From: Bacteroidota bacterium
GTDB taxonomy: Bacteria > Bacteroidota > Bacteroidia > Flavobacteriales_F > PHOS-HE28
Assembly (NCBI GenBank): GCA_014584605.1
Contig: JACTMO010000053.1
Location: 89,792 to 153,791, forward strand
DNA: 64,000 bases
Reading direction: 5' to 3'
Shown here: positions 1 to 60,597 of the stretch, one piece after another
Numbering within the stretch: position 1 is the stretch's first letter
How the letters are laid out: each line of letters opens with the position of its first letter
Notes under the pieces: generated by a model
Told to the model about the DNA's origin: nothing
Database searches by the model: none
Seen by the model: only the letters and a program-made list of their open reading frames with translations
Translations under genes and position numbers: made by a program

Positions 1-488
1 ATCCGCAGGCGGACTGCGAGACCGTGCTGCTCACCGCCGCCTTCGCGCCCAACAGCATCTACGTGTGGTATGTGAACGGCCAGCCCTACAGCGAGGAGCG
101 ATCCCCGCCCTACTACCTTCCGCCCGATGCCGACGATGCCGTGCAGTTCATGCTGGTGGTCACGAACACGGACAGTTGCCGCAGCAGCGACATGGTCACG
201 GTGTACCCGCCCACATGTGTGCATGTGCCGAACGCCGTCACCATGAACGGCGACGGCAACAACGAGCTCTTCTTCCCGGTGGTGTATCCGGCGGTGCGCT
301 TCCGCGAGTTCCGTATCTTCAACCGGTGGGGCGAGGTGATCCACCATTGCACGGGCACGGTGGTCCCTTGGGACGGGACGGTGGGCGGTGCGCGCGCGCA
401 GGACGGCGTGTACGTGTGGAAGCTGCGCTACAGCGACGGCCACGACAACGAGCTGGAGCGGGTGGGGCACGTGACCCTGTTGCGATGA
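1..488 (+). CDS. C-terminal fragment of a T9SS type-B (gliding motility-associated) CTD protein; the 5' end lies outside the window
   Basis: The frame is open from nt 3. The C-terminal module 'VPNAVTMNGDGNNELFFP...FRIFNRWGEVI...WDGT...DGVYVWKLRY...GHVTLLR' is typical of the Bacteroidota type-B T9SS sorting domain. Stop at 486-488. Confidence 0.7.
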   Translation, partial: PQADCETVLLTAAFAPNSIYVWYVNGQPYSEERSPPYYLPPDADDAVQFMLVVTNTDSCRSSDMVTVYPPTCVHVPNAVTMNGDGNNELFFPVVYPAVRFREFRIFNRWGEVIHHCTGTVVPWDGTVGGARAQDGVYVWKLRYSDGHDNELERVGHVTLLR

Positions 489-2869
489 GGAGAGATCACG
501 GCATCGGGGAGACCCTGGCAGGAGCACGGAGCCGCGTGGTCCTTCAGGTGGCCCTGTGGACGGTCTTCATAGGAGTGTTCGTTGGTTGCGACGGTGGTGG
601 GAGCGCATCGGAGAAGGAGGCCGACGTGGCGGACACCACGCGGTATCGCATGCTCTGTGAAGCTGTCCGGTCCGTGTACCGCACCCGACCGGATAGTGCG
701 TGGGCGTTACTTGAACAGGCGGAAGCCACGGCTGCAAGGATCGGAGGGGACAGCCTTCGGTACGATGTTGAGGACCTGCACTACGAGGTGCTGCAAGCCC
801 GATATGATAGCTCCGCTCTTCGGTACCAGTTGGGTCGGATCGCCGATCGGGAGCGCAGCGGCGCACGAGAGCCCTTGATGCACGCCTGGATGAACCTGGC
901 CCTGAACCGGCTGCAGGCGGGGGATTTTCCTGCGGCGGACAGCCTGCTTCACCTCGCCCGCAAGGAGGCGATCTCCCTGAAGGACAGCATGGACCTGGCC
1001 CAGACCGGGTGGATGCTGATGAACGTGCTCAACATGACGGGGCGACCGGGCTCTGCCATCGCCATCGGGAGAGAGGTGCTTCGGATACCACCGACCGGGT
1101 CCGTTCGTCCGATCATCGAACTGGTGCGTCTGGACCAGGCCATCGCGTACATGGGGAATGGAGACCTGGACAGCGCCGATCAGCTTTTCCGGGCCGGCTT
1201 GTCCTCGGACTGGGTGCTGAAAAACCCGAACATATGGCAGTCCGCGGCGGTGAACTATGCCGAGCTCAGGACGAACCAAGGGGATCTCGCGGGAGCGTTG
1301 GACCTGCTCCTCGCCGCCGAAAAGAAATTGGTCGCGCTCGGGGATACGCTCCAACTCGCGGTCCTGAAGATGAACCTGGGCAGCCTGCTTGCCAGTCTCC
1401 ATCGACACGAGGAGGCCTTGGTGGCCTACGAGGATGCGGGGAAATACGCCCGGATCGTGGGCATGCAGGAAATTTCAACTTCCACCAAGGGGCTGATGGC
1501 GCTGCTCAGGGTGAATGGGAATGGACACAAGGAGGGAAGAGCGGTCGCCACCAGGGATGAACCCATCCGTACAGATTTGGAAGTCCTTCGGGAGGCATTG
1601 AGCGCGGCGCGCACCAACACGAGCCAACGCTTCGTGGACCTTTTTCTGACCGGGATCGGATCGGCCCACCTACAGCTCGGGGACCTCCATGGTGCCCGGC
1701 AGGCGATCGACAGTGCGCTCACCGGAGCGCGGGACCGGGGCGATCGAAGCGCCTTGCAGGAAGCGTTGCTCGTCTCCGGTGACATTCATGCGGCCCAAGG
1801 CCGGCCGATGGACGCCGAGCACGACTATGCGGAAGCACTTCGCATCTGCCGTGAGTTGGGAGGCAGACAGCACACCATCCGTGCGCTGGACAGATCGGCC
1901 GGGGTGTATGAAGCCACCGGACGACCGCTGCAAGCCTTGTCGGCCGTCAGGGAGGCGAAGGAACTCCAGCTCCGGCTCTTCACCGACAGCACCATGAATG
2001 AGGTGGCACGGTTGGAGGCCCGGGCCGCGTTCGAGAAGAAACAGCTCACCGACAGCCTCGCCCACGCCCAGCAGCTCGCCTTGGAACGCGCAGAGGCCCA
2101 GGCCCGCATCGACCACCAACGCACGCGCACCGTGGCCGCAATGGGCGGAGGAGCCGTGTTGCTCATGGGTGGCGGTGTGGCGTTCGCGCTGGACCGCCGC
2201 CGCCGCCAGGCCCGTTTCGCGCAGCGGGCCGCCGAACTGGAGCGCGAGGCCGCGCGCTTCGAGACGCAGGCCCTGCGCAGCCAGATGAACCCGCACTTCA
2301 TCTTCAACGCGCTCAACTCCATCGCCGGCTATGTGCAGGGCAACGACCCCGACCGTGCGCAGAGCTTCCTGGCCCGCTTCGCGAAGCTGATGCGGGCCGT
2401 GCTGGAGAACAGCCGCTTTGCCGAAGTGGCGCTGGCCCGGGACCTGGAGGTGCTGCGGGCCTACATGGAACTGGAGCGCGTGCGTGCGCAGGGCAAGTTC
2501 AGTTACACCATCACCGTGGCGCCCGACGTGGACGCAGAGGCGGTGCTGGTGCCGCCGTTGCTGGCGCAGCCCTTCGTGGAGAACGCGATCTGGCACGGGG
2601 TGGCGGGCAAGGAGGGCGAAGGGCGCATCGTCGTGCACGTGGAGCGGGCCGATGGCCAGTTGCGCATCCGGGTGGAGGACGATGGTGTGGGCCGTGCGCA
2701 ACAACGCAGTGCGGTGAGCAGGGAGAAGACCAGCCTGGGCACGGCCATCACGCGCAGCCGGCTGGACCTGGTGGAGAAGCAGAAGGGGGCCCCGGCGGGC
2801 TTCCGTTATGTGGAGGTGCCGGTGGGCACACGCGTGGAGATCCACCTGCCGCTGGAACTGGCGGCATAG
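485..2869 (+). CDS. Sensor histidine kinase: lipoprotein-like N-terminus, TPR repeats, one TM helix, LytS-type His_kinase and HATPase
   Basis: The ATG at 485 overlaps the upstream stop (ATGA). N-terminus 'VVLQVALWTVFIGVFVGCDG' looks like a lipobox. The TPR-like helical region is followed by TM 'AAMGGGAVLLMGGGVAFAL'. 'MNPHFIFNALNSIAGYV' is the PF06580 His_kinase signature, followed by a C-terminal ATPase. The 65..484 part of the tracked ORF is an upstream extension overlapping gene 1 in another frame. Confidence 0.8.
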   Translation: MRRDHGIGETLAGARSRVVLQVALWTVFIGVFVGCDGGGSASEKEADVADTTRYRMLCEAVRSVYRTRPDSAWALLEQAEATAARIGGDSLRYDVEDLHYEVLQARYDSSALRYQLGRIADRERSGAREPLMHAWMNLALNRLQAGDFPAADSLLHLARKEAISLKDSMDLAQTGWMLMNVLNMTGRPGSAIAIGREVLRIPPTGSVRPIIELVRLDQAIAYMGNGDLDSADQLFRAGLSSDWVLKNPNIWQSAAVNYAELRTNQGDLAGALDLLLAAEKKLVALGDTLQLAVLKMNLGSLLASLHRHEEALVAYEDAGKYARIVGMQEISTSTKGLMALLRVNGNGHKEGRAVATRDEPIRTDLEVLREALSAARTNTSQRFVDLFLTGIGSAHLQLGDLHGARQAIDSALTGARDRGDRSALQEALLVSGDIHAAQGRPMDAEHDYAEALRICRELGGRQHTIRALDRSAGVYEATGRPLQALSAVREAKELQLRLFTDSTMNEVARLEARAAFEKKQLTDSLAHAQQLALERAEAQARIDHQRTRTVAAMGGGAVLLMGGGVAFALDRRRRQARFAQRAAELEREAARFETQALRSQMNPHFIFNALNSIAGYVQGNDPDRAQSFLARFAKLMRAVLENSRFAEVALARDLEVLRAYMELERVRAQGKFSYTITVAPDVDAEAVLVPPLLAQPFVENAIWHGVAGKEGEGRIVVHVERADGQLRIRVEDDGVGRAQQRSAVSREKTSLGTAITRSRLDLVEKQKGAPAGFRYVEVPVGTRVEIHLPLELAA

Positions 2870-2933
2870 CCCGCCGGAGTTCCCGCCGACCGAGGGGCCG
2901 CTTGGCAGGACGTGGTGCGGATGTTAGCTTGCG

Positions 2934-3716
2934 ATGCGCGCGACAGTGCACAGTACGCTCATGAACGGGACCAGGATCACGGCAGCGATCATCGACGACG
3001 AGGCCATTTGCATCACGGCCTTGGAGGGCCTGTTGCGCCGACGCCATCCCGAACTCGACCTCGTGGGCACGGCATCCGACGTGCCGGGCGGGGTGGCGCT
3101 GGCGAAGGACAAGCGACCCGACCTGCTCTTTCTGGACGTGGAGCTCGGGGACATGACGGGCTTCGACCTGTTGAAGGCCATCGCACCCCTGCGGCCGCTG
3201 GTGATCTTCACCACGGCCCACGAGAGCTACGTCGTGAAGGCGATCCGGTTCAACGCGCTGGACTATCTGCTGAAGCCCATCGACCCCGAGGAACTGGACG
3301 ATGCGGTACACAAGGCCGTGCGCGAGCGGGGCGGTCATGCCGCTTCACCTGACCGCATAGCACCGCTGCTGGGCACCTTGATGAGCGACCGCCAGCTGGC
3401 GCTGCCCGATGCCAGTGGCCTGGTGGTGGTCCATCTGGACGACATCCTGTACTGCACCAGCGACAACAACTACACCTCGGTGCATGTGCGGGGCGACAAG
3501 AAGCCGATGGTGGTGAGCCGCCCCCTGAGCGAGTTCGATACCTTCCTCGCAGGGCAGGGCTTCGTGCGCATCCACCAGAGCCACCTGATCAATCGCAAGC
3601 ACATCCGTCGCTACATGAAGGGCGAAGGCGGCGAGGTGATCATGAGCGATGGGGCCAACCTGCCCGTGAGCCGCCGTCAGAAGGCCGATCTGATGGAGGC
3701 CTTGGAGCGCTTGTAA
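2934..3716 (+). CDS. LytTR-family response regulator (REC + LytTR DNA-binding domain)
   Basis: REC motifs 'AAIIDDE', 'LFLDVELGDMTGFDLL', 'IFTTAHESYVVKAIRFNALDYLLKP'. C-terminal LytTR 'VVVHLDDILYCTSDNNYTSVHVRGDKKPMVVSRPLSEFDTFL...FVRIHQSHLIN'. An alternative ATG at 2961 is possible. Confidence 0.9.
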   Translation: MRATVHSTLMNGTRITAAIIDDEAICITALEGLLRRRHPELDLVGTASDVPGGVALAKDKRPDLLFLDVELGDMTGFDLLKAIAPLRPLVIFTTAHESYVVKAIRFNALDYLLKPIDPEELDDAVHKAVRERGGHAASPDRIAPLLGTLMSDRQLALPDASGLVVVHLDDILYCTSDNNYTSVHVRGDKKPMVVSRPLSEFDTFLAGQGFVRIHQSHLINRKHIRRYMKGEGGEVIMSDGANLPVSRRQKADLMEALERL

Positions 3717-3736
3717 GGCGGGCCGAACAGACCTCT

Positions 3737-3774
3737 TCCGCCGGATCCTCGGTGCGCGCCGCCGGATCCTCGAT
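3737..3774 (+). promoter_or_regulatory. Two direct repeats of CCGCCGGATCCTCG, 21 bp start-to-start; candidate LytTR operator
   Basis: Copies at ~3738-3751 and ~3759-3772, about 75-110 bp upstream of the ATG at 3849. The same motif pair recurs at 5583-5617. Confidence 0.4.
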
Positions 3775-3848
3775 CCCCATGGGCCGGGTCGTTCGGCCGC
3801 TGGACTTTTGGTCCGTCACCGCACGATCACCCGTCAACCCGACCCGTC

Positions 3849-4652
3849 ATGAACACTATCGCCCGCCACTTCGGCACCTGCATCACCTGCGGCCTTGCGG
3901 CCCTGTTCATCCTCACAAGCGCTCATGCGAACGCGCAAGCCGAAGGCCTGGATGCGCACATCCGTGAACTGGACCGCCAGATCGCCCAGGCTGCGGCCGA
4001 GCAGAACTACGTCGCCGCCGCCGGTCTGCAACGGGACCGCGCCAACTGGGTGGCCCTGAGGGAGGCCATCGACGCCAATGACGCGGCCCGCATCCTGTCC
4101 CTCCAACAGGCGCTTGCGAACCCGTACGTGTACACCGCAGGTGGCAGCGCACAGCGCCCGGCAGAGACCTCTCCCACCGCCAACGGACCCGAGTTCATGC
4201 ATCAGGTCTACACCAAGGAAGCCGATGGCAGCTACCGGCAGCTGGAGAAGGAGGAGGCCAGCCGGTCCTCATCCGGCGGCGGTTATGCCGGTTTTGGCGG
4301 GCGCGTGTCATCGATCAAGATCCCCGGCGACCGCTCCAACGTGCGCTTTCCCGTCGGTACCACGCCCCGCTTCGTGGTGAAGACCTATCCAGGCCAGGAC
4401 CCTTCGGACCTCATCGAGCTGGTGCGCTTTGAGGTGCGCGGCGTCCGCAAGGACCGCTACGCGGATATGAGCAAGAGCAGCCACGCCTTCCATCATCACA
4501 GCAGCAGCGAGGTCACCGAGAACCGCATCCGCATCACCTTCACCAACCTGGGCGAACAGGTGTACGGGATCGCTACCGACGAGCCGCTGCCTGCCGGCGA
4601 GTACGCCTTCCTGAACGGGAGCAAGGTGTTCGCCTTCGGGGTGGGGGAGTGA
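3849..4652 (+). CDS. Secreted hypothetical protein (signal peptide, no recognisable domain)
   Basis: ATG start; N-terminus 'MNTIARHFGTCITCGLAALFILTSAHANAQA' is a signal peptide. No family recognised. A His-rich patch 'HAFHHHSSSE' is present. Confidence 0.6.
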   Translation: MNTIARHFGTCITCGLAALFILTSAHANAQAEGLDAHIRELDRQIAQAAAEQNYVAAAGLQRDRANWVALREAIDANDAARILSLQQALANPYVYTAGGSAQRPAETSPTANGPEFMHQVYTKEADGSYRQLEKEEASRSSSGGGYAGFGGRVSSIKIPGDRSNVRFPVGTTPRFVVKTYPGQDPSDLIELVRFEVRGVRKDRYADMSKSSHAFHHHSSSEVTENRIRITFTNLGEQVYGIATDEPLPAGEYAFLNGSKVFAFGVGE

Positions 4653-4754
4653 GCGGAGGGATGGGAGCGGAAGCACATGGTATGAACGATATCTACGACC
4701 TTGCGTCCTGAAGCCAACGGACCTGCACCAGCCTTAACCAATAACACCGACCTC

Positions 4755-5528
4755 ATGATCTCCCGGATGGCCGTGCTCCTGACCCTGTTGATACTGACCC
4801 CACAAGGCGTCAGCGCGCAGGACGCAACGAATGCTCCCTGGGGAGGCTTCCACGCCGGCGTGGTGCTGGGCCCTGCCTTGGGCAGCGGCAACACCACCGT
4901 GGCCAACGGTACCGACGATCGTTCACAGGTATTCTGGAACCCCGCCTTCGAGAACGGACGGCTGCGCACCCAATACACCCGGCTGATGGTCGGTCCGGCC
5001 TTCGGGATCCAGGGCGGCTACGACCGGCGGATGGGCAACTTCGTGGTGGGGGGATCGCTGGCGCTGATGCGCTCCGGCGCCAAGGCCGAGGAGGGCTACC
5101 TGCTGAGCGGCACCAGCGTATGGTCCAGCGTGTCGGAGGAACGCGAGCAGCGCCTCAACTTCCTGGGCCTGTTGCGTGCCCGTGCCGGTGTGGTGATCAA
5201 GGACCGCTGGCTTGCCTACGGCACCATGGGTCTTTCTTTCGGCGCGGTGCGATACGAGTACGACATGGACAGCCCGGGCAGCAGCGACTATCACGAGGTG
5301 GACGAGGGTCGTGTGGCCGTGGGATGGAACCTGGGCCTGGGTCTGGAGCGCCACATCTGGAAACAGCTCACCGCGCAAGTGGAGTACACCTTCAACGGCA
5401 TGGGCAGGCATACCTACACCACCGTCCCCAGTGGTCGCAACGCCAATATGGACACGCACTTCGACGTCACCTTCCGCGACCATTACCACACGGTGCTTTT
5501 AGGAGCCCGTTGGTATTTCCCGATGTAA
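4755..5528 (+). CDS. Outer-membrane beta-barrel protein (OmpA-like/porin-family barrel)
   Basis: The tracked ORF starts with TTG at 4701; the first ATG at 4755 gives signal peptide 'MISRMAVLLTLLILTPQGVSAQD'. Alternating amphipathic strands, Gly/aromatic-rich, with C-terminal 'ARWYFPM' (terminal aromatic). Confidence 0.6.
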   Translation: MISRMAVLLTLLILTPQGVSAQDATNAPWGGFHAGVVLGPALGSGNTTVANGTDDRSQVFWNPAFENGRLRTQYTRLMVGPAFGIQGGYDRRMGNFVVGGSLALMRSGAKAEEGYLLSGTSVWSSVSEEREQRLNFLGLLRARAGVVIKDRWLAYGTMGLSFGAVRYEYDMDSPGSSDYHEVDEGRVAVGWNLGLGLERHIWKQLTAQVEYTFNGMGRHTYTTVPSGRNANMDTHFDVTFRDHYHTVLLGARWYFPM

Positions 5529-5550
5529 CGGATCGACAGCCAACGTGTTG

Positions 5551-5573
5551 AACGGCGCCGAAGGGGCGCCGTT
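5551..5573 (+). terminator. Perfect 9-bp stem hairpin (AACGGCGCC-GAAGG-GGCGCCGTT) just after the 5528 stop; terminator-like but no U-tract
   Basis: Inverted repeat read directly from the sequence. No T-run follows. Confidence 0.3.
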
Positions 5574-5582
5574 CCGCGTTCC

Positions 5583-5617
5583 CACCGGATCCTCACCATA
5601 CACCGCCGGATCCTCGG
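5583..5617 (+). promoter_or_regulatory. Second pair of CC(A/G)CCGGATCCTC direct repeats, 20 bp start-to-start; candidate LytTR operator
   Basis: 'CCACCGGATCCTCACC' at ~5583 and 'CCGCCGGATCCTCGG' at ~5603, about 80-110 bp upstream of the ATG at 5696. Confidence 0.4.
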
Positions 5618-5695
5618 CCGGGCAAGGAATGCGCAGACTGCCAGGGGAGTTTTGACCCGTCACGAACGACGAACAGCCCAAACACCCTGGTCATC

Positions 5696-6340
5696 ATGAA
5701 CACCCAAGCGAACTTTCGGTCTCTTCTTGTCGGCATCACCCTCTGCCTGTCCATCACCGGCGTGCAGGCACAGGACGCGGATCCCGCACCGGCCTTCGGC
5801 AAAGGCCGCATCGCCCTCAACGCCGGCATCGGCCTGGGCGGTGTGCGCCCCGGCTACTACGGCAGCTACAACGACAGCTACAGCAACAGCCCCACGTTCT
5901 GCCTCAGCGCGGAGGGGGGTGTGGCCAAGGCCGGCCCGGGCGTCATCGGTGTGGGCGGCTTCCTGTCCCACCGCTGGACGCGTCACGTGGATGAAGACAG
6001 CTACGGCAGCGTCACCTACACCTTCGACGAGCGCTGGACCCGCACCACCGTCGGCGTGCGCGCGGCCTGGCACCTCAGCGAGTACGTGCCCGCAGACAAG
6101 CTGGACCTCTATGCCGGAGTGATGCTCGGCTACGCGATCGTGGGATACCGGAACGAGAGCACCCGCACGGTGAACGGAGAGACGACCGCGTACAGCACCA
6201 ACAGCCGTCCGCGTCGGGGCTATGCCGATTGGAGCACCTTCGTGGGCGCCCGCTGGTTCTTCACCCGCAACGTCGGGGTCTATGCGGAGGCGGGCTACGG
6301 CGTAAGCTACATCAACCTGGGGGCGGCCTTCCGTTTCTGA
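5696..6340 (+). CDS. Outer-membrane beta-barrel protein (small porin-like barrel)
   Basis: Signal peptide 'MNTQANFRSLLVGITLCLSITGVQAQD'. Gly/Tyr-rich strands; C-terminal 'GVSYINLGAAFRF' ends in Phe. Confidence 0.6.
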   Translation: MNTQANFRSLLVGITLCLSITGVQAQDADPAPAFGKGRIALNAGIGLGGVRPGYYGSYNDSYSNSPTFCLSAEGGVAKAGPGVIGVGGFLSHRWTRHVDEDSYGSVTYTFDERWTRTTVGVRAAWHLSEYVPADKLDLYAGVMLGYAIVGYRNESTRTVNGETTAYSTNSRPRRGYADWSTFVGARWFFTRNVGVYAEAGYGVSYINLGAAFRF

Positions 6341-9998: not shown

Positions 9999-10008
9999 GC
10001 GGCGGCGG

Positions 10009-10428
10009 TCACAGCCAGGCCAGGTACTTGTCCTCCAGCGCCCGCATGGCGGCCTTCTGGGCCTTGCTGCGGTCGTCGTGGCCCAGCAGGTGCAGCAGGC
10101 CGTGCAGCATCACGCGGTGCAGTTCGTGGCGGGCGCTGACCCCGAAGGCCGTGGCGTTCTCCCGGATGCGGTCATAGCTGAGGAGCACATCGCCGCTGGC
10201 CCCGTTGCTGCTCTCCACCGGGAAGGTGATGACATCGGTGTAATCGTCGTGCTGCAGGAAGGTGCGGTTGTAGTGGAGCAGGGTCGCATCGTCCATGGCC
10301 ACGAAGCACACGCGGTCGATCCGGCTGCCATGATCGGCGGCCACGCGCTGCAGCCAGTGGCGCAGTCGGGCACGGTCGCGGAAAGGGTTGGGAACGTCCT
10401 GTACGAGGAAGGTGACCGGGGTGGCCAT
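10009..10428 (-). CDS. ybeY: Endoribonuclease YbeY (rRNA maturation factor)
   Basis: 'HRVMLHGLLHLLGHDD' zinc-binding HxxxHxxxxxH motif, size ~139 aa. The ATG is the complement of 10426-10428 and overlaps the upstream stop (ATGA). Confidence 0.9.
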   Translation of the reverse strand: MATPVTFLVQDVPNPFRDRARLRHWLQRVAADHGSRIDRVCFVAMDDATLLHYNRTFLQHDDYTDVITFPVESSNGASGDVLLSYDRIRENATAFGVSARHELHRVMLHGLLHLLGHDDRSKAQKAAMRALEDKYLAWL

Positions 10429-10865
10429 CACTCCTTCACGGCCGTGGTGTTGAAGGCCATGGCCACCGTGGCGCCGTTGTCGGCGAAGGCGATGTCGTCG
10501 GCCAGTGCCCGCATCAGGAACACGCCGCGGCCGTGCGGTTTCTCGATGTTCTCCGGGTCGGTGGGGTCGGGCAGGTGGTCGTGGTCGAATCCCGCGCCCT
10601 GGTCCTTCACCACGAACACCACCCGGTCGCCATCGGTGTGGTAGCCCACGGTGACCTGCTTGGCGGGGTCCTGCCGGTTGCCGTGGTGGATGGCGTTGTT
10701 CACCGCCTCGGTGAGCGCGATGAGGATGTTGCCGTAATGCGACTCGTGCACTTGGAGCCGGCCGCACACATCATCGATCATCTTCTCCACCAGCGCGATG
10801 TTCTCCGCCCGGCTGGGGAAGTCGATCTGCTCGGTGAACTGCACGTCCTCGGTCAGGGCCGTCAT
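10428..10865 (-). CDS. ATP-binding protein, anti-sigma regulatory factor-like (HATPase_c_2 / RsbW-type)
   Basis: 'GNILIALTEAVNNAIHHGN' N-box and 'VKDQGAGFD' G1-box of GHKL ATPases, ~145 aa. Start overlaps the stop of the upstream giant gene (ATGA). Confidence 0.7.
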   Translation of the reverse strand: MTALTEDVQFTEQIDFPSRAENIALVEKMIDDVCGRLQVHESHYGNILIALTEAVNNAIHHGNRQDPAKQVTVGYHTDGDRVVFVVKDQGAGFDHDHLPDPTDPENIEKPHGRGVFLMRALADDIAFADNGATVAMAFNTTAVKE

Positions 10866-13800
10866 CAGCGTGGTTCAGGTGTGTCAAAAGTACCGAAATA
10901 GTCGTTCACGCGGTCGCGGTAGTACGGCTTGAGGCCGGCGGGCACGGTGCGCAGCAGTTCGGCTTCGCGGGCCTTGCGCTGCTGGTACTCGAAGAAGCGG
11001 GCGGGGTCCTCGGCGGGCCGGTCGCGGCCTTCGTTGCTGGTGCGTTTCTGGTCCAGTTCCCGTTCGCGCTCGGCCTTCTCGGCCTCCAGCAGGCGGGTCA
11101 TGATGTCCTGTTGGCGGCGCAGGGTCTCGGGGGTGATGTTCTTGTTGACGATGTCCTTCTCTTGGCGCTCCATCTGCTCGGCGAGCTTGTTGAGGCCGTT
11201 GCCGGCACCGCTGCCGTCCTTGTTGAGCTCCTGGGCCATGCGCTGCATTTCCTTGCGGATGGCGGCCTGTTGGGCGGCGAGCTGGGCCAGCTGCTGGCTC
11301 ATGCCCGGGGTGTGGCCGCCGGGGTTCTGCTGCCCGGGCTTCTCCCCCTTTTTACGGCCCTCCTCCAGGGCCTTGCGCATGGCGTCCAGCTGCTTCTGCA
11401 GGGCCTCCTGCTGGGCCTTCATCCTGGCCATGCTGGGTTTCTTGCCCTGGCCGCTGCCCGTGCCGCCCGGTTTGTTGCACTGGCCATTGCCGGGCATCTG
11501 GCTCTGCATCTGCTGCTGCATCTGTTGCAGCGCTTCGTCCAGCAGCAGGGCCAGGTTGTTCAGCGCGGTCATGGCGCGTTGCTGGTCATCGGCGGCCATG
11601 GCCTTGTGGCGTTCGTTGGCACGGGCCTCGCCCACATGCTCCAGGGCCTGGTCCATGTGGCCGTTCACGGCGTTCATCTCGCGGTTCACGGTGCCCTGGA
11701 CCTGTGGCACGCGCTTGCTGAGGGCGAAGAGGCTGTCCTCGATCACCCGGGCGGTGCTGCGCAGTTCGCGCTGTTCGCGGCCCAGTTCCATGAAACGCGG
11801 GTCGCGCACACCGGTCGCCTTCAGGCCATCCATCACGCGTTCCTGGTCGAAGCTCAGCTGCACGATGTTCTCCAGCAGCTGGCGCATCGCGTCCATGTCC
11901 TCCTCCTGTTGCTGCTGCTGGCCGCTCTGCATGCCGCTGGTCATCTGGAAGGCCATCTGTTTCATCTGGTCGGCGGCGTTCTGCTGGCTTTGGCCGGCCT
12001 TCTGGTTCTGCTTTTTCTGCAGCTGGTCGCTGCTCTGCTGCTGTTGCTGCCGGATCTGTTCCTCGGTGGGTGCGGTGTCCGGCAGGTCCAGGGGCTTCTC
12101 CAGTTCCTGGTTCTTCTTCTCCAGTTCGTCCACCTGTTCGCGGATGTCCTCAAAGGCCTTGTTCAACGAATCCTGGCGCTGCTGCAGTTCGTCCTGGGGC
12201 CGGTCGCCGGCCTTGGTGTCCTCGGCCAGTTCCTCCTGTTCCCTGGCGAGCTTCTCCAGCTGCTGGGCGATGTCCTCCGTACGCTGCTCCACCTCCATTT
12301 GCTTGAAGAGCTCCAGGCTGCGGTCCAGTTCCTTTTCGATGTCCTCCTGGCTCAGTTTCATTTCCTCCACCTTGTCCAGCAGCTTCTCCTTGTCCAGCTT
12401 GTCGAGCATCTCCTGCATCTGGCGGTAGAGCTCCTTCATCTCCTCGCTCAGCACGTCCTCGAAGAGCTCCTGCAGGCGCTGCTGCTTCTCCAGCACACGC
12501 TCGTCCACCTGGCGGAACTCCTGCTGCTGCTGCTGCTGTTGCCGCAGCTGCTCGGTGGATCGTTCGATGCTGCGCTCCAGTTGTTTCTGCCTGTCGAGCA
12601 GCTTTTGCATGCGCTGCTGGTCCTGCCAGTCGGGCTGCTTCTTGTCCAGCAGGTCGCGCCGCATACGGTCCAGTTCACGCTGCAGGTCCCGGGCCTCCTT
12701 GATGCCCTGCTGGAGGTCCTGGGCGATGGCCTCGCTCTGCTGGGCCCGCTGTTGGGACAGGGCCTCCAAGGTGGGCGCCTCGAAGACCAGGGTGGCACTG
12801 CGGGTGCGTTTGGCGCCATGCACACCGTCGTTGTCCCACACCTCGAACCAGTATTCGACCTTGTCCCCGGGCTGTATGGGCAGGTCGATCAGGTCCCAGG
12901 CGTGCAGGAACTCCTGCCGCACCTGGCGCCGATCCACGGACAGCTCCTGCACGCCCTCGCGCTGGTCCGGTGCCACGCTGTCACCACCGGCGATGAAGCG
13001 GTAGGCGAACTGCAGTCGGGTGAAGCCGTGGTCGTCGCCGATGCTACCCCGGAAGTAGCGGCGTTTGAGGGCGGCGCTGTCCACGCGTTCCTCGACGACG
13101 ATGGTGGGGTACAGGTCGGGCACCACGTCGATGCGGTGGTCCGGCGTTTCGGATGGGCTGCGGTCGCCGTGGTGGGGCACCATGCGGTAGGTGAGCGGTT
13201 CGAGCACGCGTCGGCTGGCGCTGAAGCGGTCGTCGCCGGCGGGTGCCAGGCGGTAGGTGCTGTCGGCGAAGGCCAGGTCGAGCCGCTGGGTGCTGCGGGT
13301 GCCGATGCTCCAGGTGAGGCGGCTGCCGGCTGGCACGGTGGCATCGCCAGCGGTGCGCAGCTGCTCGGCGGGCAGGCCCAGGTAGGCGGGCGGTTCCACG
13401 GTGATCATCACGTCGAGCACAGCGGGGTCGGGCACCACGGTGAGCAGGAGGTCGCGGCTGTCCACCCCTTGGGCGGTAAGGCGGAAGGGGGTGTCCCGAC
13501 CCACGTTGCGGAAGCGGTGGCGGAAACGGTCCACGCCTTCCTTCACCAGGGGGATGGCCCGGCCGTCCACCAGCACGTCCACCTGCTGGGGTAGCACGCT
13601 GCCCTCCACGGCCACCTCCAGCTCGAAGTCCTGTTGCTCGGGCACCTCCAGGCTGCTGTTGCGCACCACGAAGCGGAACGGTGCCTCGGGCGTGAAGGTG
13701 CTGCCGTGCCGGATGAGGCGTTGGGTGGGCCCGGTGATGAAGGAGGGGGCGGCCAGCAGCAGGAGCAACAGCAGCATCAGCGGCGGCAGGGCGAAGCGCA

Positions 13801-14272
13801 GGTGCCGGGCATTGCGCCGCAGATCGATGGCGTTGGCGAAGGGAATGGGCCCAAGCTCGCGGCTGCGCTGGGCGATGCTCGCCTCGATGAGGTCGCGGTG
13901 GCGGTCATCGTGCGCGGCCTGGTCCTTGAGCTGCAGGGTGTTGAGCAGCTTGTCGCGCACCTCGCCGAAATGCGCACCGATGATGCGGGCGGCCTCGGCA
14001 TGGCTGATCACCGGGCCCAGGCGGAAGAGCTTCACCAGCGGCCATGCGATGAAGCGGGCCAGCACCGCCGTGGCGGCCAGCAAGTACCCGTAGAAGAGGG
14101 CCGTGCGCACGCCGGTGCCGAAGCGGCCCACGTATTCAAGCCCGGTGGCCAGCAGGTAGGCCAGCACCAGCAACCCCACGCTGTACAGGGCCCCGCGCAA
14201 CAGCTGGTCCTTGTAATACTTGCGGATGAACGCGTCGAGCTTGGCGATCAGCAGGTCGTGGTCGGAGGCCAT
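10865..14272 (-). CDS. Large membrane-anchored coiled-coil protein, DUF4175-like, Q/E-rich
   Basis: N-terminal TM helices ('GALYSVGLLVLAYLLATGLEYV', 'LMLLLLLLLAAPSFI'), a ~600-aa Q/E/K-rich coiled coil with poly-Q runs, conserved C-terminus 'LKPYYRDRVNDYF'. Start taken at ATG 14270-14272 (MASDHDLL...). Confidence 0.6.
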   Translation of the reverse strand: MASDHDLLIAKLDAFIRKYYKDQLLRGALYSVGLLVLAYLLATGLEYVGRFGTGVRTALFYGYLLAATAVLARFIAWPLVKLFRLGPVISHAEAARIIGAHFGEVRDKLLNTLQLKDQAAHDDRHRDLIEASIAQRSRELGPIPFANAIDLRRNARHLRFALPPLMLLLLLLLAAPSFITGPTQRLIRHGSTFTPEAPFRFVVRNSSLEVPEQQDFELEVAVEGSVLPQQVDVLVDGRAIPLVKEGVDRFRHRFRNVGRDTPFRLTAQGVDSRDLLLTVVPDPAVLDVMITVEPPAYLGLPAEQLRTAGDATVPAGSRLTWSIGTRSTQRLDLAFADSTYRLAPAGDDRFSASRRVLEPLTYRMVPHHGDRSPSETPDHRIDVVPDLYPTIVVEERVDSAALKRRYFRGSIGDDHGFTRLQFAYRFIAGGDSVAPDQREGVQELSVDRRQVRQEFLHAWDLIDLPIQPGDKVEYWFEVWDNDGVHGAKRTRSATLVFEAPTLEALSQQRAQQSEAIAQDLQQGIKEARDLQRELDRMRRDLLDKKQPDWQDQQRMQKLLDRQKQLERSIERSTEQLRQQQQQQQEFRQVDERVLEKQQRLQELFEDVLSEEMKELYRQMQEMLDKLDKEKLLDKVEEMKLSQEDIEKELDRSLELFKQMEVEQRTEDIAQQLEKLAREQEELAEDTKAGDRPQDELQQRQDSLNKAFEDIREQVDELEKKNQELEKPLDLPDTAPTEEQIRQQQQQSSDQLQKKQNQKAGQSQQNAADQMKQMAFQMTSGMQSGQQQQQEEDMDAMRQLLENIVQLSFDQERVMDGLKATGVRDPRFMELGREQRELRSTARVIEDSLFALSKRVPQVQGTVNREMNAVNGHMDQALEHVGEARANERHKAMAADDQQRAMTALNNLALLLDEALQQMQQQMQSQMPGNGQCNKPGGTGSGQGKKPSMARMKAQQEALQKQLDAMRKALEEGRKKGEKPGQQNPGGHTPGMSQQLAQLAAQQAAIRKEMQRMAQELNKDGSGAGNGLNKLAEQMERQEKDIVNKNITPETLRRQQDIMTRLLEAEKAERERELDQKRTSNEGRDRPAEDPARFFEYQQRKAREAELLRTVPAGLKPYYRDRVNDYFGTFDTPEPR

Positions 14273-14382
14273 CGGCGTTGGCGTGGGGCGCCAAGGGGTA
14301 AAGGTACGGGGGTGCGCAGGGGGGCGGGCCCGCCTTCGGTACACCGCAGGGTGTTAAAAGGATCGAAGGGCGGGCGACGGGT

Positions 14383-57984: not shown

Positions 57985-58012
57985 GGTTGTGGATCACACA
58001 AGGTAGTTTCAT
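57985..58012 (+). promoter_or_regulatory. Candidate Bacteroidota-type promoter (TTG ... TAGTTTCA) upstream of the low-GC T9SS gene
   Basis: 'GGTTGTGGATCACACAAGGTAGTTTCATCACGG' resembles the -33 TTTG / -7 TAnnTTTG architecture, about 25 nt upstream of ATG 58033. Confidence 0.3.
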
Positions 58013-58032
58013 CACGGTAAGCTCCTGATCCC

Positions 58033-59814
58033 ATGAAGACAACGCAGACTTTGGCCGTGTCAATGGCCCTGGGCTCTCTATCATCCATGGCACAGAGCTT
58101 CGATCACTTGGATGCGAACATGATCCGGGCCCGATTCACGGCCCATGGCATGATCGGGCTTGATCGGAGCGTTGGCGAGCCGGATTTTGAGGTGCCCGTT
58201 GGAAGCGGGGCCCATGCGTTGTTCGCAGCCTCAATGTGGGTGGGTGGGTACGATACGCTTGGCAGCTTGCATCTTGCTGGCCTGCTGTTCGACCAGAACG
58301 GGCTGCCCGACTACGCCCCAGGACCGCTTACAACGGACGGCAGCGCATCGATCACTCCGGCCGTGTCAGCCCAGTATGATCAAGTGTTCAAGGTCAAAGC
58401 CGTGGATGTTGCCCTGCACCAGGCCTACTACGATTGTTTGAACACGCCAGGATGCGATGTCAATGTTCAGTTCCCCGGGTATGTGATACCCCAGAGTTTT
58501 CTTGACTGGCCAGGGAACGGTGACACCTTGGCTGGTCAGGCCGCCCGGTTGGCGCCATTCATCGATCTTGATGGTGACGGGCTGTATGAGCCGACCGCCG
58601 GTGATGCACCATGCATCCACGGGGATGAAGCACTCTATTTCATGTTCAATGATGTGCTGAACCCGCATGGCACGGGCGGTGCTCCCCTTGGTATCGAGGT
58701 CCATGCCATGCCCTTCGCATTCTATTCCGCCAACGAGGCACTCGCGCACACGCTCTTCATCAAGTACCGGCTCATCAATCGAAGCGATGACTCCTTTGAA
58801 ATGGTCCGCATTGGTCTGTTCACTGACTATGACCTTGGATATGGTCGTGATGACTACGTGGGCTCTGATCCCGGAAGGAATCTCGGCTACGTGTACAACG
58901 CGGATACGCTGGATGAAACGACATCAACCTATACCGGATATGGGTCGATGCCACCCGCTTTTGGGACAACGCAGCTCAAAGGTCCGTTCCTGGAGCCTGA
59001 TGGGTTTGACGATCCCGAAGGACCGGGTATACCCGCTTTCAATGGCTCTGGTTTTGGTGACCTGGTGGTCGACAATGAACGTCATGGTGTCGCGTACATG
59101 ACCTACTTCAGCAATGACGCCACCGCCCGAGGCAATCCGAATACAGCCGAACAGTTCTTCGGTTATCTGAGCGGGTACTGGCGCGACGGAACACCGCTCT
59201 TCCATGGAGGCACTGGGCATTACTCCGATCCCGAGGCCACGACCGTTCCAGCGCGCTTTGCATTTCCAAGTTCTGAAGACCCACTTGGAGCGGGAACAGG
59301 TGGTCAGGTGATGGCTCCATGGGCGGAGCATTCATCAGGCAATCAACCGAGGGATAGGCGGATGGTCATGTCGGCCGGACCCGTGGAGCTGGATGCCGGA
59401 GAGGAGATCGAACTTGTCTACGCGTTCGTGTTCGCCCGCCCAGGATCCAATGGGCTGATGAGCAGCGTTCTGCGGCTACAGGAAAGGGTGGATTCGGTAC
59501 AGGCTTTTTACAATGATCTGCCGGAGGCGTGCAACGGAGCGGGATCTCAGGTGGGTTTGGAGGAACACACAGACCGTGGACCAATCGTATTTCCCGTTCC
59601 GGCCGAAGATCGTCTGACCTTAAGGCTTGAGGTCCCCGGTCCAGTGGAATTGGTCGTGTACGATATGCTCGGCGTGGAGTGCTCGAGAGGGCGCGATACC
59701 GGGGATCTGATCCAGATCGACCTTTCGGAGCTTGGTCAAGGCTCGTATCTGTTGCATGTTGCTCAAGGCGAGGTGAGCCATGTTGTTCCGTTCATGAAGA
59801 TCACGACCAGATAG
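58033..59814 (+). CDS. Secreted T9SS type-A CTD protein of unknown function, with markedly lower GC than its surroundings
   Basis: Signal peptide 'MKTTQTLAVSMALGSLSSMAQS'. C-terminal 'IVFPVPAEDRLTLRLEVPGPVELVVYDMLG...GSYLLHVAQGEVSHVVPFMKITTR'. Third-codon positions are visibly less G/C-rich (~55% GC by eye versus ~70% for flanking genes). Confidence 0.7.
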   Translation: MKTTQTLAVSMALGSLSSMAQSFDHLDANMIRARFTAHGMIGLDRSVGEPDFEVPVGSGAHALFAASMWVGGYDTLGSLHLAGLLFDQNGLPDYAPGPLTTDGSASITPAVSAQYDQVFKVKAVDVALHQAYYDCLNTPGCDVNVQFPGYVIPQSFLDWPGNGDTLAGQAARLAPFIDLDGDGLYEPTAGDAPCIHGDEALYFMFNDVLNPHGTGGAPLGIEVHAMPFAFYSANEALAHTLFIKYRLINRSDDSFEMVRIGLFTDYDLGYGRDDYVGSDPGRNLGYVYNADTLDETTSTYTGYGSMPPAFGTTQLKGPFLEPDGFDDPEGPGIPAFNGSGFGDLVVDNERHGVAYMTYFSNDATARGNPNTAEQFFGYLSGYWRDGTPLFHGGTGHYSDPEATTVPARFAFPSSEDPLGAGTGGQVMAPWAEHSSGNQPRDRRMVMSAGPVELDAGEEIELVYAFVFARPGSNGLMSSVLRLQERVDSVQAFYNDLPEACNGAGSQVGLEEHTDRGPIVFPVPAEDRLTLRLEVPGPVELVVYDMLGVECSRGRDTGDLIQIDLSELGQGSYLLHVAQGEVSHVVPFMKITTR

Positions 59815-59844
59815 GGAAGATCATCATGCAACCGAGGATCCGGT

Positions 59845-59955
59845 TCACCCCTCCACCTCCTCGGCCGGTGGCGCGGGCCGGTACACCTCGCGGGTGATGA
59901 AGAAGACCAGCAGGGCCACGCCCAACAGGAGCAGGAGACCGGTGGTGCGTTTCAT
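59845..59955 (-). pseudogene. Truncated duplicate of the DUF4230 N-terminus (36 codons), inside direct repeat copy 2
   Basis: Encodes 'MKRTTGLLLLLGVALLVFFITREVYRPAPPAEEVEG*', compared with the intact gene's 'MKRTTGLLLLLGVALLVFFLTREAYRPDAPAEQVTE...'. Confidence 0.5.
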
Positions 59956-59995
59956 GGTGCGGTGGCAAAGGTGGAACGGCGGCGCCGATACCTTT
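59854..59995. repeat. Direct repeat copy 2
   Basis: See copy 1. Confidence 0.7.
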
Positions 59996-60000
59996 GGCCG

Positions 60001-60597
60001 ATGCGCCACGGATGGCTGTTCTCCACGTGCGTCGTGGGTCTTCTGTTGGCCGGATGCGGCGCAGCGTCCCGTGTGGACCTGGACACGCTGCGGACCATGG
60101 AGCACCGGCTCGCGGATGGCGCGGTCGTGGCGGGTCGATCGCTTTTCGGTGCGGGCCACACCTTGGTGCTGACCCTGGATCCCGAGTGCCCGCTCTGCCT
60201 GATGCACGCGCCCGAGCTGGCCACGCTGGTGCCCGATGATGGGCTGCACATCGTGGGGCTGTATGCGTCGCCCTACATTGTCCCCGACAGCGCGCGGGCC
60301 TTCGCCGAACGGAACGGGTTCCGCTTTCCGCAGGTGATGGACCCTGCGTGTGCGATCGCGCAGGCGTTGGATGCGGTGGTCACCCCCGAGGCGTTCCTCC
60401 TGGCGGCGGACGGCACGGTGCTGTACCGTGGCGCCATCGACGATCGCGCACAGCGGGCCGGGCGCAAGAAGCCCGAGGCCACCCGCCATCATCTGCGCGA
60501 TGCGCTCGCGGCCGTGCGGCGGGGTGAACGTCCTGCTGCGGCCCATGTGCGGGCCGTGGGCTGCTTTCTGGAATGCACGGAAGTGGAGGTGCCATGA
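60001..60597 (+). CDS. TlpA-like thiol-disulfide oxidoreductase / redoxin lipoprotein
   Basis: Lipobox 'WLFSTCVVGLLLAGCG'. 'TLVLTLDPECPLCLMHAPEL' is a CxxC thioredoxin-fold motif. ATG at 60001. Confidence 0.65.
   Translation: MRHGWLFSTCVVGLLLAGCGAASRVDLDTLRTMEHRLADGAVVAGRSLFGAGHTLVLTLDPECPLCLMHAPELATLVPDDGLHIVGLYASPYIVPDSARAFAERNGFRFPQVMDPACAIAQALDAVVTPEAFLLAADGTVLYRGAIDDRAQRAGRKKPEATRHHLRDALAAVRRGERPAAAHVRAVGCFLECTEVEVP

What the first reader, a model, noticed from the sequence alone, without database searches (positions are those of the whole stretch)
3737..5617. Paired direct repeats CCGCCGGATCCTCG with 20-21 bp periodicity upstream of two secreted/OM protein genes, adjacent to a LytTR regulator
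The 13-14-bp motif occurs as two direct copies spaced 21 bp start-to-start (3738/3759), upstream of the secreted-protein gene at 3849. It occurs again as two copies spaced 20 bp (5583/5603), upstream of the OM beta-barrel gene at 5696. LytTR regulators such as AgrA, ComE and PlnC characteristically bind imperfect direct repeats separated so that the periodicity is ~21-22 bp (two helical turns). A LytTR response regulator and its LytS-type kinase are encoded immediately upstream (485-3716). This suggests a local regulon of kinase, regulator, secreted protein and two porin-like proteins controlled through these repeats. The GGATCC core is otherwise rare in this window.
Basis: partly seen in the sequence, partly recalled or inferred. 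Interest (0 to 1): 0.7.

Follow-up and report, generated by a model that had tools for sequence, protein, structure and literature searches.

The report
Conserved LytTR-type operator direct repeats
Two pairs of a 10-base repeat (CCGGATCCTC, 21 bases apart) sit at a fixed distance upstream of two envelope-protein promoters next to a LytTR two-component regulator. They are conserved in about a dozen related uncultured Flavobacteriales, so they are almost certainly that regulator's binding sites: a solid but ordinary regulatory motif.

Summary
CCGGATCCTC occurs 5 times exactly in the window (0.16 expected). Four copies form two pairs, at 3741/3762 and 5585/5606. GGATCC itself is not rare (17 found, 20 expected).

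Each pair is followed, exactly 41 nt after the start of the second repeat, by a Bacteroidota sigma-A -7 box (GAnTTTTG), with the ATG about 40 nt further on. No -33 TTTG is present.

Scans of public genomes and metagenomes recovered the same pair only in orthologous kinase-regulator loci of high-GC Flavobacteriales MAGs. All other hits were tandem coding repeats in unrelated taxa. Across 19 promoters from about 12 species, only the two repeats (core CCGnATnCTC) and the -7 box are conserved.

The first pair usually lies 0-25 nt after the regulator's stop codon, even where the downstream gene differs. Where the OMP2 gene has decayed (L031), its pair and -7 box have decayed too.

This matches the published LytTR operator architecture. 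Binding by the adjacent regulator is inferred, not shown. No site lies upstream of the kinase, so autoregulation is unsupported. Verdict: new member of a known kind, with moderate to low interest.

The parts
485..2869 (+). Sensor histidine kinase. It has an N-terminal transmembrane or signal segment, about 510 aa of periplasmic TPR repeats, a second transmembrane segment near aa 550-570, and a cytoplasmic His_kinase (PF06580) plus HATPase_c core.
   Evidence: Pfam; hydropathy and translation. Orthologues align from about aa 137 of the longer ORF, which supports the ATG at 485.
2934..3716 (+). Response regulator with REC and LytTR DNA-binding domains. The predicted phospho-acceptor is D68. This is the proposed binder of the repeats.
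   Evidence: Pfam LytTR 70 bits (cut-off 22.6) and Response_reg 69 bits. Best NCBIfam model is BtsR at 113 bits, below its cut-off. Translation.
3738..3751 (+). Distal repeat of pair A (CCGCCGGATCCTCG; conserved core 3741-3750), at about -74..-65 from the predicted start site.
3759..3772 (+). Proximal repeat of pair A (CCGCCGGATCCTCG; core 3762-3771), at about -53..-44.
3803..3810 (+). Sigma-A -7 box GACTTTTG (consensus TAnnTTTG, 7 of 8 matched). The predicted transcription start is about 3815. No -33 TTTG is present.
   Evidence: conserved column block. The box occupies -12..-5 in Flavobacterium (PMC9723704).
3849..4652 (+). SP: a lineage-restricted exported protein with a signal peptide, a three-helix region, a disordered linker and an Ig-like beta-sandwich. 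It is the first gene driven by pair A.
   Evidence: No Pfam or NCBIfam hit. Only 15 homologue clusters exist, all from Flavobacteriales MAGs. AF2 model pLDDT 74. Only generic Ig-like fold matches were found, none with E<=0.001.
4755..5528 (+). OMP1: an outer-membrane beta-barrel protein (PF13505). It is probably co-transcribed with SP, because the 102-nt gap holds no repeat pair and no terminator.
5542..5580 (+). GC-rich hairpin (10-bp core stem 5550-5574) after OMP1. It is the likely terminator separating the two transcription units.
   Evidence: Fold -27.7 kcal/mol, z = -2.5. An equivalent hairpin precedes the pairs in L128, L138 and L137.
5582..5595 (+). Distal repeat of pair B (CCACCGGATCCTCA; core 5585-5594).
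5603..5616 (+). Proximal repeat of pair B (CCGCCGGATCCTCG; core 5606-5615).
5647..5654 (+). Sigma-A -7 box GAGTTTTG, at the same 41-nt offset from the proximal repeat as in pair A. The predicted start is about 5659.
5696..6340 (+). OMP2: a small exported protein, distantly related to proteins that a source names 'outer membrane protein with beta-barrel domain'. It is the gene driven by pair B.
   Evidence: No Pfam hit.

Best explanation
The two repeat pairs are operators for the phosphorylated form of the LytTR response regulator encoded just upstream (2934-3716).

Proposed mechanism:
- A regulator dimer binds head-to-tail to two CCGnATnCTC half-sites whose centres lie two helical turns (21 bp) apart, at about -70 and -49.
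- From there it recruits or stabilises sigma-A RNA polymerase at promoters that have a near-consensus -7 box (GAnTTTTG) but no -33 element. These promoters are therefore activator-dependent.
- Pair A drives SP and OMP1. Pair B, downstream of a terminator hairpin, drives OMP2.
- The input comes from the adjacent kinase, whose roughly 510-aa periplasmic TPR domain would sense an unidentified envelope signal.

Shown here:
- The sites exist and are far beyond chance.
- Their geometry is fixed.
- They are evolutionarily conserved as footprints.
- They are linked to the regulator gene.

Inferred:
- The identity of the binding protein.
- Activation rather than repression.
- The transcription start sites.
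- The signal.
For: 1. Statistics: 5 exact 10-mers against 0.16 expected, and 2 pairs against 0 expected.

2. Colinear promoters: the two promoters align without gaps from the distal repeat to the -7 box. TTTG sits at offset 45 from the proximal repeat in both.

3. Genome scan: of the 119 loci returned from the GTDB species-representative collection, the four Flavobacteriales hits (L031, L079, L093, L095) are all this same kinase-regulator locus. The other 115 are mostly 21-bp tandem coding repeats in unrelated taxa. None of them has TTTG at that offset.

4. Metagenome scan: in the untruncated scan of 23 loci, every hit that is not a tandem coding repeat is again this locus.

5. Footprint: the information-content profile over 19 promoters from about 12 species shows conservation only at the distal repeat, the proximal repeat and the -7 box. 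Spacers and flanks are free, although regulator identity falls to 64% and GC content to 50%.

6. Linkage to the regulator: the first pair lies 0-25 nt after the regulator's stop codon in most species (114-192 nt in L145 and L137), while the downstream gene varies.
- SP in the window.
- A beta-helix protein in L095.
- A 340-aa protein in L143.
- An FGE-sulfatase protein in L149.
- A DUF5362-like protein in L151.
- A LytTR-only protein in L152.

7. SP without the regulator: SP homologues that are not next to the regulator (L146, L150) have no pair.

8. Natural decay: in L031 the OMP2 gene has decayed. There its pair has collapsed to a single degenerate copy and the -7 box is lost.

9. Published architecture: LytTR operators are two 9-11 nt repeats with an 11-13 nt spacer, for example YpdB's GGCATTTCAT repeat (PMC4847170). 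AgrA's repeats lie immediately upstream of P2/P3 (PMC4227749). The -7 box position comes from PMC9723704.
Against: - No binding or expression data exist. These organisms are uncultured MAGs.
- The transcription start sites are predicted from a consensus box only.
- No site lies upstream of the kinase-regulator genes. The autoregulatory loop typical of Agr/Com/Pln systems is therefore absent, although YpdB and BtsR also lack it.
Absence of distant regulon members is not proven.
- The source genome beyond this 64-kb window was not scanned.
- The LytTR domain has no close solved relative by sequence, so base-contact residues could not be checked.
Confidence: 0.8

Rival explanations
1. The repeats are real promoter operators, but they are bound by a different transcription factor encoded elsewhere. 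The adjacent LytTR regulator acts on other targets.
For: No direct binding evidence exists. Any dimeric or tandem-binding factor could use 21-bp-spaced direct repeats.
Against: The first pair stays within 0-25 nt of the LytTR gene's stop codon in most species, even though the downstream gene changes. The unit length and spacer match the LytTR rule exactly. All pairs found lie within about 6 kb downstream of the regulator. SP homologues away from the regulator lack them.
Confidence: 0.08
2. The regulator binds the repeats but represses, or only modulates, transcription. It might, for example, block read-through from its own gene rather than activate the downstream promoters.
For: Pair A begins only 22 nt after the regulator's stop codon, and no terminator lies between them (one search shows only a weak terminator-like hit at 3791-3805). 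AgrA can also repress at some sites.
Against: The sites are centred at about -70 and -49, upstream of the polymerase footprint. The promoters lack a -33 element and have a suboptimal first base in the -7 box. That combination is typical of activator-dependent promoters. Pair B follows a strong hairpin, so no read-through needs blocking there.
Confidence: 0.07
3. The repeats are a GATC (Dam-type) methylation-dependent switch, with paired GATC sites as in pap or agn43 phase variation.
For: Each GGATCC contains GATC. A further GATC often follows the proximal repeat (CCTCGATC).
Against: GATC is not the conserved part. Relatives carry CCGAATTCTC, CCGGATACTC, CCGGATTCTC, CCGGATGCTC and CCGCATTCTC at the same positions. 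The invariant bases are CCG, AT and CTC.
Confidence: 0.02
4. The repeats are a chance or neutral duplication (slippage), a dispersed repeat element, or a structured RNA element in the 5' or 3' UTR.
For: The genome is GC-rich. 21-bp tandem repeats containing this 10-mer occur by chance in many high-GC genomes.
Against: The spacers are unrelated in sequence. Conservation extends to species with 64% regulator identity and 50% GC, while surrounding bases drift. The distance to the -7 box is fixed. There is no Rfam match, and RNA folding is no better than shuffles, with z = +0.18 and -0.55. Both pairs lie upstream of the predicted start sites.
Confidence: 0.02

Closest known systems
YpdA/YpdB (E. 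coli) operator in the yhjX promoter
   Same: It is a LytS-family kinase core paired with a LytTR regulator. The operator is a direct repeat of a 10-nt motif (GGCATTTCAT) within the general LytTR rule of an 11-13 nt spacer (PMC4847170). It controls a small local or non-autoregulated target set. One natural half-site variant here (CCGCATTCTC in L079/L137) even resembles the GCATT core.
   Different: The half-site sequence differs (CCGnATnCTC). The kinase sensor is a periplasmic TPR domain rather than a multi-pass membrane domain. The promoter is the Bacteroidota -7 type without a -33 element. The targets are exported or outer-membrane proteins, not a transporter. The regulator scores below the BtsR/YpdB equivalog cut-offs.
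AgrA P2/P3, ComE and PlnC/PlnD operators of Gram-positive peptide quorum-sensing systems
   Same: Each has two direct repeats about 21 bp apart immediately upstream of the core promoter. The promoters are suboptimal and need the activator (PMC4227749). Several promoters in one locus share the same paired sites.
   Different: No autoinducing-peptide gene, AgrB or ABC exporter is present. No site lies upstream of the kinase-regulator genes, so there is no autoinduction loop. The host is Gram-negative and the half-site is GC-rich.
BtsS/BtsR (YehU/YehT), the best-scoring NCBIfam model for the regulator
   Same: It has the same REC plus LytTR architecture. From my own knowledge of Kraxenberger et al. 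2012, cited but not read here, it uses a direct-repeat operator and a single local target.
   Different: The score is 113 bits against a 246-bit cut-off, so this regulator is not an orthologue. The half-site and the sensor domain differ.
Bacteroidota sigma-A promoters (-33 TTTG / -7 TAnnTTTG)
   Same: The conserved box GAnTTTTG matches 7 of 8 positions of TAnnTTTG. It lies about 40 nt upstream of the ATG.
   Different: There is no -33 element. The first base is G or C instead of T in most instances. A variant box, TTGCTTCG, occupies the same offset in L137 and L152.

Membership tests
LytTR-regulator operator (AgrA/ComE/PlnC/VirR/YpdB/BtsR type) | Two repeats of 9-11 nt separated by an 11-13 nt spacer | tested here: met
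   The conserved core is 10 nt with an 11-nt spacer, 21 bp start to start, in both window pairs and in nearly all of the roughly 25 pairs found in relatives. The rule is taken from PMC4847170.
LytTR-regulator operator (AgrA/ComE/PlnC/VirR/YpdB/BtsR type) | Location immediately upstream of the core promoter of the regulated gene, on the same strand | tested here: met
   The proximal repeat starts 41 nt before a conserved -7 box in both window promoters. TTTG lies at offset 45 in about 21 of 25 pairs, and all are on the strand of the downstream gene. The start sites are predicted, not mapped.
LytTR-regulator operator (AgrA/ComE/PlnC/VirR/YpdB/BtsR type) | A cognate regulator with a LytTR DNA-binding domain | tested here: met
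   PF04397 scores 70 bits against a 22.6-bit cut-off in the gene that ends 22 nt before pair A. Orthologues accompany the pairs in all 12 or so species.
LytTR-regulator operator (AgrA/ComE/PlnC/VirR/YpdB/BtsR type) | Physical, phosphorylation-dependent binding of the regulator to the repeats | not testable with these tools
   This needs EMSA, footprinting or ChIP.
Peptide quorum-sensing cassette (Agr/Com/Pln/Fsr) | A signal-peptide precursor and processing or export genes in the locus, with an operator upstream of the kinase-regulator operon (autoinduction) | tested here: not met
   No such genes appear among the neighbours. No pair with 2 or fewer mismatches lies upstream of the kinase in any locus.
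LytS/LytT-type two-component system | Kinase with a His_kinase (PF06580) and HATPase_c core | tested here: met
   PF06580 scores 77.5 bits and HATPase_c 30.5 bits.
LytS/LytT-type two-component system | A multi-pass membrane (5TM-LytS type) sensor domain | tested here: not met
   Only two hydrophobic segments are present, and they flank about 510 aa of TPR repeats. This is the TPR-sensor architecture common in Bacteroidota.
BtsR / YpdB orthologue | Score above the NCBIfam equivalog cut-off | tested here: not met
   BtsR scores 113.5 bits against a 246-bit cut-off. LytR scores 94 bits against 375.
Bacteroidota sigma-A promoter | A -7 box TAnnTTTG | tested here: met
   GACTTTTG and GAGTTTTG match 7 of 8 positions, and the column block is conserved. 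Consensus and position come from PMC9723704.
Bacteroidota sigma-A promoter | A -33 TTTG element | tested here: not met
   The columns between the proximal repeat and the -7 box carry no conserved TTTG. This is consistent with dependence on an activator.
GATC methylation switch | GATC conserved in the paired sites | tested here: not met
   The variants GAATTC, GGATAC, GGATTC, GGATGC and GCATTC occur at orthologous sites.

The most novel reading that the evidence does not exclude
This is the first sequence-defined operator, and the first minimal regulon, for the very abundant but uncharacterised Bacteroidota class of TPR-sensor kinase plus LytTR regulator systems.

On this reading the system is a lineage-specific envelope-damage response, possibly to oxidative damage. 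It would switch on small outer-membrane beta-barrels, an exported Ig-like protein and, in some species, a periplasmic methionine-sulfoxide reductase (MsrB). It would do so from -33-less sigma-A promoters with rigid activator geometry.
Probability: 0.25. Interest if true: 0.5.

Novelty: new member of a known kind. Interest (0 to 1): 0.35.

Why it matters
LytTR regulators paired with TPR-sensor kinases are among the commonest two-component systems in Bacteroidota. I found no paper in the searchable library that defines an operator or regulon for any of them.

This locus offers three things:
- A precise, testable half-site: CCGnATnCTC, spaced 21 bp.
- A fixed activator-to-promoter geometry for the unusual Bacteroidota -7/-33 promoter type.
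- A compact target set of exported and outer-membrane proteins.

It could serve as a template for predicting regulons of this family. It could also provide an inducible promoter part for Flavobacteriia. It does not change how LytTR regulators are understood to work.

Tried and rejected
- GGATCC rarity: rejected. There are 17 copies against 20 expected.
- Sigma-70 promoter scan: no hits in 3500-6000. This is expected, because Bacteroidota promoters differ.
- RNA element: no Rfam hit and no excess folding.
- ECF-type promoter (GGAAC...CGTC): considered because CCGTC follows the -7 box. It was dropped because the region that would hold a -35 element is not conserved.
- Function of SP: there is no Pfam or NCBIfam hit. 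The AF2 model (pLDDT 74) gave only generic Ig-like matches with E>0.001 in PDB. The afdb50 library was unavailable.
- Solved-structure search with the regulator: only REC-domain matches, and no close LytTR structure.
- Covariation between regulator and half-site: regulators at 53-54% identity (L153, L154) lie in different gene contexts and have no pair. They mark the boundary of the orthologous group but are not informative about co-evolution.
- Fifth 10-mer at 59834: it lies between convergent gene ends, with no partner and no box, so it is a chance copy.
- Stop-free-frame test for 'coding versus intergenic' on the scan hits: uninformative in high-GC DNA.
Full report
**1. Observation**

The 14-mer CCGCCGGATCCTCG starts at 3738 and again at 3759. 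The related CCACCGGATCCTCA starts at 5582, and CCGCCGGATCCTCG starts at 5603. Both pairs are therefore 21 bp apart.

- The shared exact core CCGGATCCTC occurs 5 times in 64 kb, against 0.16 expected from dinucleotide-preserving shuffles.
- The pair pattern occurs twice against 0 expected.
- GGATCC alone is not unusual: 17 found against 20.4 expected.
- The fifth copy (59834-59843, minus strand) has no partner. It lies between two convergent ORF ends, so it is a chance copy.

**2. Anatomy**

Gene content, in order:
- 485-2869: a kinase with two hydrophobic segments flanking about 510 aa of TPR repeats, then a His_kinase (PF06580) and HATPase_c core.
- 2934-3716: a REC plus LytTR response regulator.
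- 3849-4652: SP, a signal-peptide protein with no family assignment.
- 4755-5528: OMP1, an OMP_b-brl protein.
- 5696-6340: OMP2, a small protein whose distant relatives are named outer-membrane beta-barrel proteins.

The two upstream regions align without gaps from the distal repeat to a box, GGAnTTTTGnnCCGTCAC. The TTTTG begins exactly 44 nt after the start of the proximal 10-mer in both regions.

GAnTTTTG matches 7 of 8 positions of the Bacteroidota sigma-A -7 box TAnnTTTG. In Flavobacterium that box occupies -12 to -5 (PMC9723704). This gives the following predictions:
- Starts near 3815 and 5659.
- Repeats at about -74..-65 and -53..-44.
- 5' leaders of about 35 nt.

No -33 TTTG is present.

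A GC-rich hairpin (5542-5580; -27.7 kcal/mol, z = -2.5) separates OMP1 from pair B. The 102-nt gap between SP and OMP1 has neither a pair nor a hairpin. The likely transcription units are therefore SP-OMP1 and OMP2.

**3. Comparative evidence**

*Genome scan.* I scanned the GTDB species-representative genome collection for CCGGATCCTC-N10-12-CCGGATCCTC.
- Four loci come from Flavobacteriales MAGs. BLAST shows that all four are the orthologous kinase-regulator locus, at 68-88% nucleotide identity.
- The other 115 are mostly 21-bp tandem coding repeats in actinobacteria, planctomycetes, clostridia and archaea. In these the spacer is repeated as well. None has TTTG at the diagnostic offset.

*Metagenome scan.* A stricter pattern on the metagenome collection gave 23 loci and was not truncated. 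Every hit that is not a tandem coding repeat is again this locus.

*More distant relatives.* SP homologues form only 15 clusters, all from Flavobacteriales MAGs. Fetching their contigs, and those of more distant regulator homologues, added relatives with GC content down to 50% and regulator identity down to 58%.
- A scan with CCGNATNCTC-N11-CCGNATNCTC, allowing up to 2 mismatches, finds 1-3 pairs in each kinase-regulator locus.
- All pairs are on the coding strand of the downstream gene.
- TTTG is at offset 45 in about 21 of 25 pairs.
- Three further pairs carry a variant box, TTGCTTCG, at the same offset (L137 and L152).

*Footprint.* An information-content profile over 19 promoters shows three footprints only: the distal repeat, the proximal repeat and the -7 box. 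Spacers and flanks are unconstrained. Half-site variants are CCGAATTCTC, CCGCATTCTC, CCGGATACTC, CCGGATTCTC and CCGGATGCTC. The recognised core is therefore CCG-nATn-CTC. GATC is not conserved, which removes a methylation-switch reading.

**4. Link to the regulator**

- The first pair begins 0-25 nt after the regulator's stop codon in most species (114-192 nt in L145 and L137).
- This holds although the next gene differs. It is SP in the window, a beta-helix protein in L095, a 340-aa protein in L143, an FGE-sulfatase-domain protein in L149, a DUF5362-like protein in L151 and a LytTR-only protein in L152.
- SP homologues that are not adjacent to the regulator (L146, L150) have no pair.
- In L031 the OMP2 gene has decayed: its ATG is now ACG and most of the gene body is deleted. 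Its pair has collapsed to one degenerate copy, with one 21-bp unit lost, and the -7 box is gone.

Together these observations tie the element to the regulator and to expression of the downstream gene.

**5. Mechanism**

The architecture equals the published LytTR operator rule: two 9-11 nt repeats separated by 11-13 nt, with no shared consensus between systems. YpdB's direct repeat of GGCATTTCAT is one example (PMC4847170). AgrA's repeats lie immediately upstream of suboptimal P2/P3 promoters (PMC4227749).

I therefore propose that a phosphorylated regulator dimer binds head-to-tail on the same DNA face at about -70 and -49. From there it activates -33-less sigma-A promoters.

The CCG/AT/CTC pattern fits the major-minor-major groove readout known from the AgrA-DNA structure. 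That point rests on established knowledge and inference and was not tested here. Activation rather than repression, the start sites and the signal are also inferred.

No pair lies upstream of the kinase. Autoregulation is thus not supported, and the system is not a peptide quorum-sensing cassette.

**6. What the regulon does**

The targets are exported or outer-membrane proteins of unknown function.
- The SP model (pLDDT 74) shows a helical N-terminal region and an Ig-like beta-sandwich. No informative structural match was found.
- In relatives, a lipoprotein-type MsrB is either a direct target (L137, pair at 12135) or a neighbour of the kinase (L145, L149). A redoxin lies nearby in L148.

An envelope-damage or oxidative-stress role is a reasonable but weak hypothesis.

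**7. Rivals**

- Another transcription factor binds the sites: about 0.08.
- The regulator represses rather than activates: about 0.07.
- A GATC methylation switch: about 0.02.
- Chance, a dispersed repeat, or an RNA element: about 0.02. There is no Rfam hit, and RNA folding is no better than shuffles.

**8. Verdict**

This is a new member of a known kind: a LytTR operator with a new half-site, in an uncultured high-GC Flavobacteriales lineage, coupled to a Bacteroidota-type promoter. I found no described operator for a Bacteroidota LytTR system in the searchable library, which gives it modest value as a template. Interest 0.35.

Noticed in passing
window 59834-59843 (- strand); 58001-60000: A lone exact CCGGATCCTC lies between two convergent ORF ends (58033..59814 on the + strand, 59845..60546 on the - strand). 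It has no partner and no -7 box. The surrounding 2 kb has GC 0.577 against about 0.67 elsewhere, so it may be foreign DNA.
   Followed up: partly
window 10001-14000: AT skew is strongly negative (-0.32 and -0.25) over the 1159-aa minus-strand ORF 10865..14344. This suggests an unusually composed or repetitive large protein gene.
   Followed up: no
L031:1050-1290 (orthologue of window 5529-5760): In the closest species representative, the OMP2 gene has decayed: its ATG is now ACG and the gene body is deleted. Its repeat pair has collapsed to one copy (CCGGATCCCC, one 21-bp unit lost) and the -7 box is lost. This is a natural 'knock-out' that links the element to the gene.
   Followed up: yes
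L137:12135-13004; L145:5707-6498; L149:3750-4181; L148:14580-15209: A methionine-sulfoxide reductase B (SelR/MsrB, with a lipoprotein-like signal) recurs with this two-component system. It is a direct target of a perfect repeat pair in L137 and the gene just upstream of the kinase in L145 and L149. A redoxin lies nearby in L148. This hints at an envelope oxidative-damage theme.
   Followed up: partly
L137:12176-12183; L152 about 6835 and about 7317: A variant box, TTGCTTCG, replaces GAnTTTTG at exactly the same offset (41 nt from the proximal repeat) in three promoters. It may be a weaker or alternative -7 element.
   Followed up: partly
L143:6968, 9847; L145:9844; L149:7350, 9844: In lower-GC relatives the half-site core changes symmetrically from GGATCC to GAATTC, so both forms are palindromic hexamers. 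Other variants (GGATAC, GGATTC, GGATGC) are not symmetric, so the significance is unclear.
   Followed up: partly
L151:4602-5822: An IS element (DDE_Tnp_1 transposase) is inserted between the kinase and regulator genes. The repeat pair and -7 box after the regulator remain intact.
   Followed up: no
L152:6862-7248: In this relative, the first gene downstream of the regulator and its degenerate repeat pair encodes a stand-alone 128-aa LytTR-domain protein. It could be a competitor or partner of the regulator.
   Followed up: no
window 24-488: The 3' end of a gene for a protein with a T9SS type-B C-terminal sorting domain overlaps the kinase start codon (ATG at 485). In relatives this is a roughly 2000-aa PKD/CHU_C protein (L147, L148), so the kinase may be co-transcribed with it.
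   Followed up: partly
window 3811-3819 and 5655-5663: A CCGTCAC motif directly after the -7 box is shared by both window promoters and partly conserved in relatives (TTTGrnnCCGyc). It spans the predicted start site, and its role is unknown.
   Followed up: no
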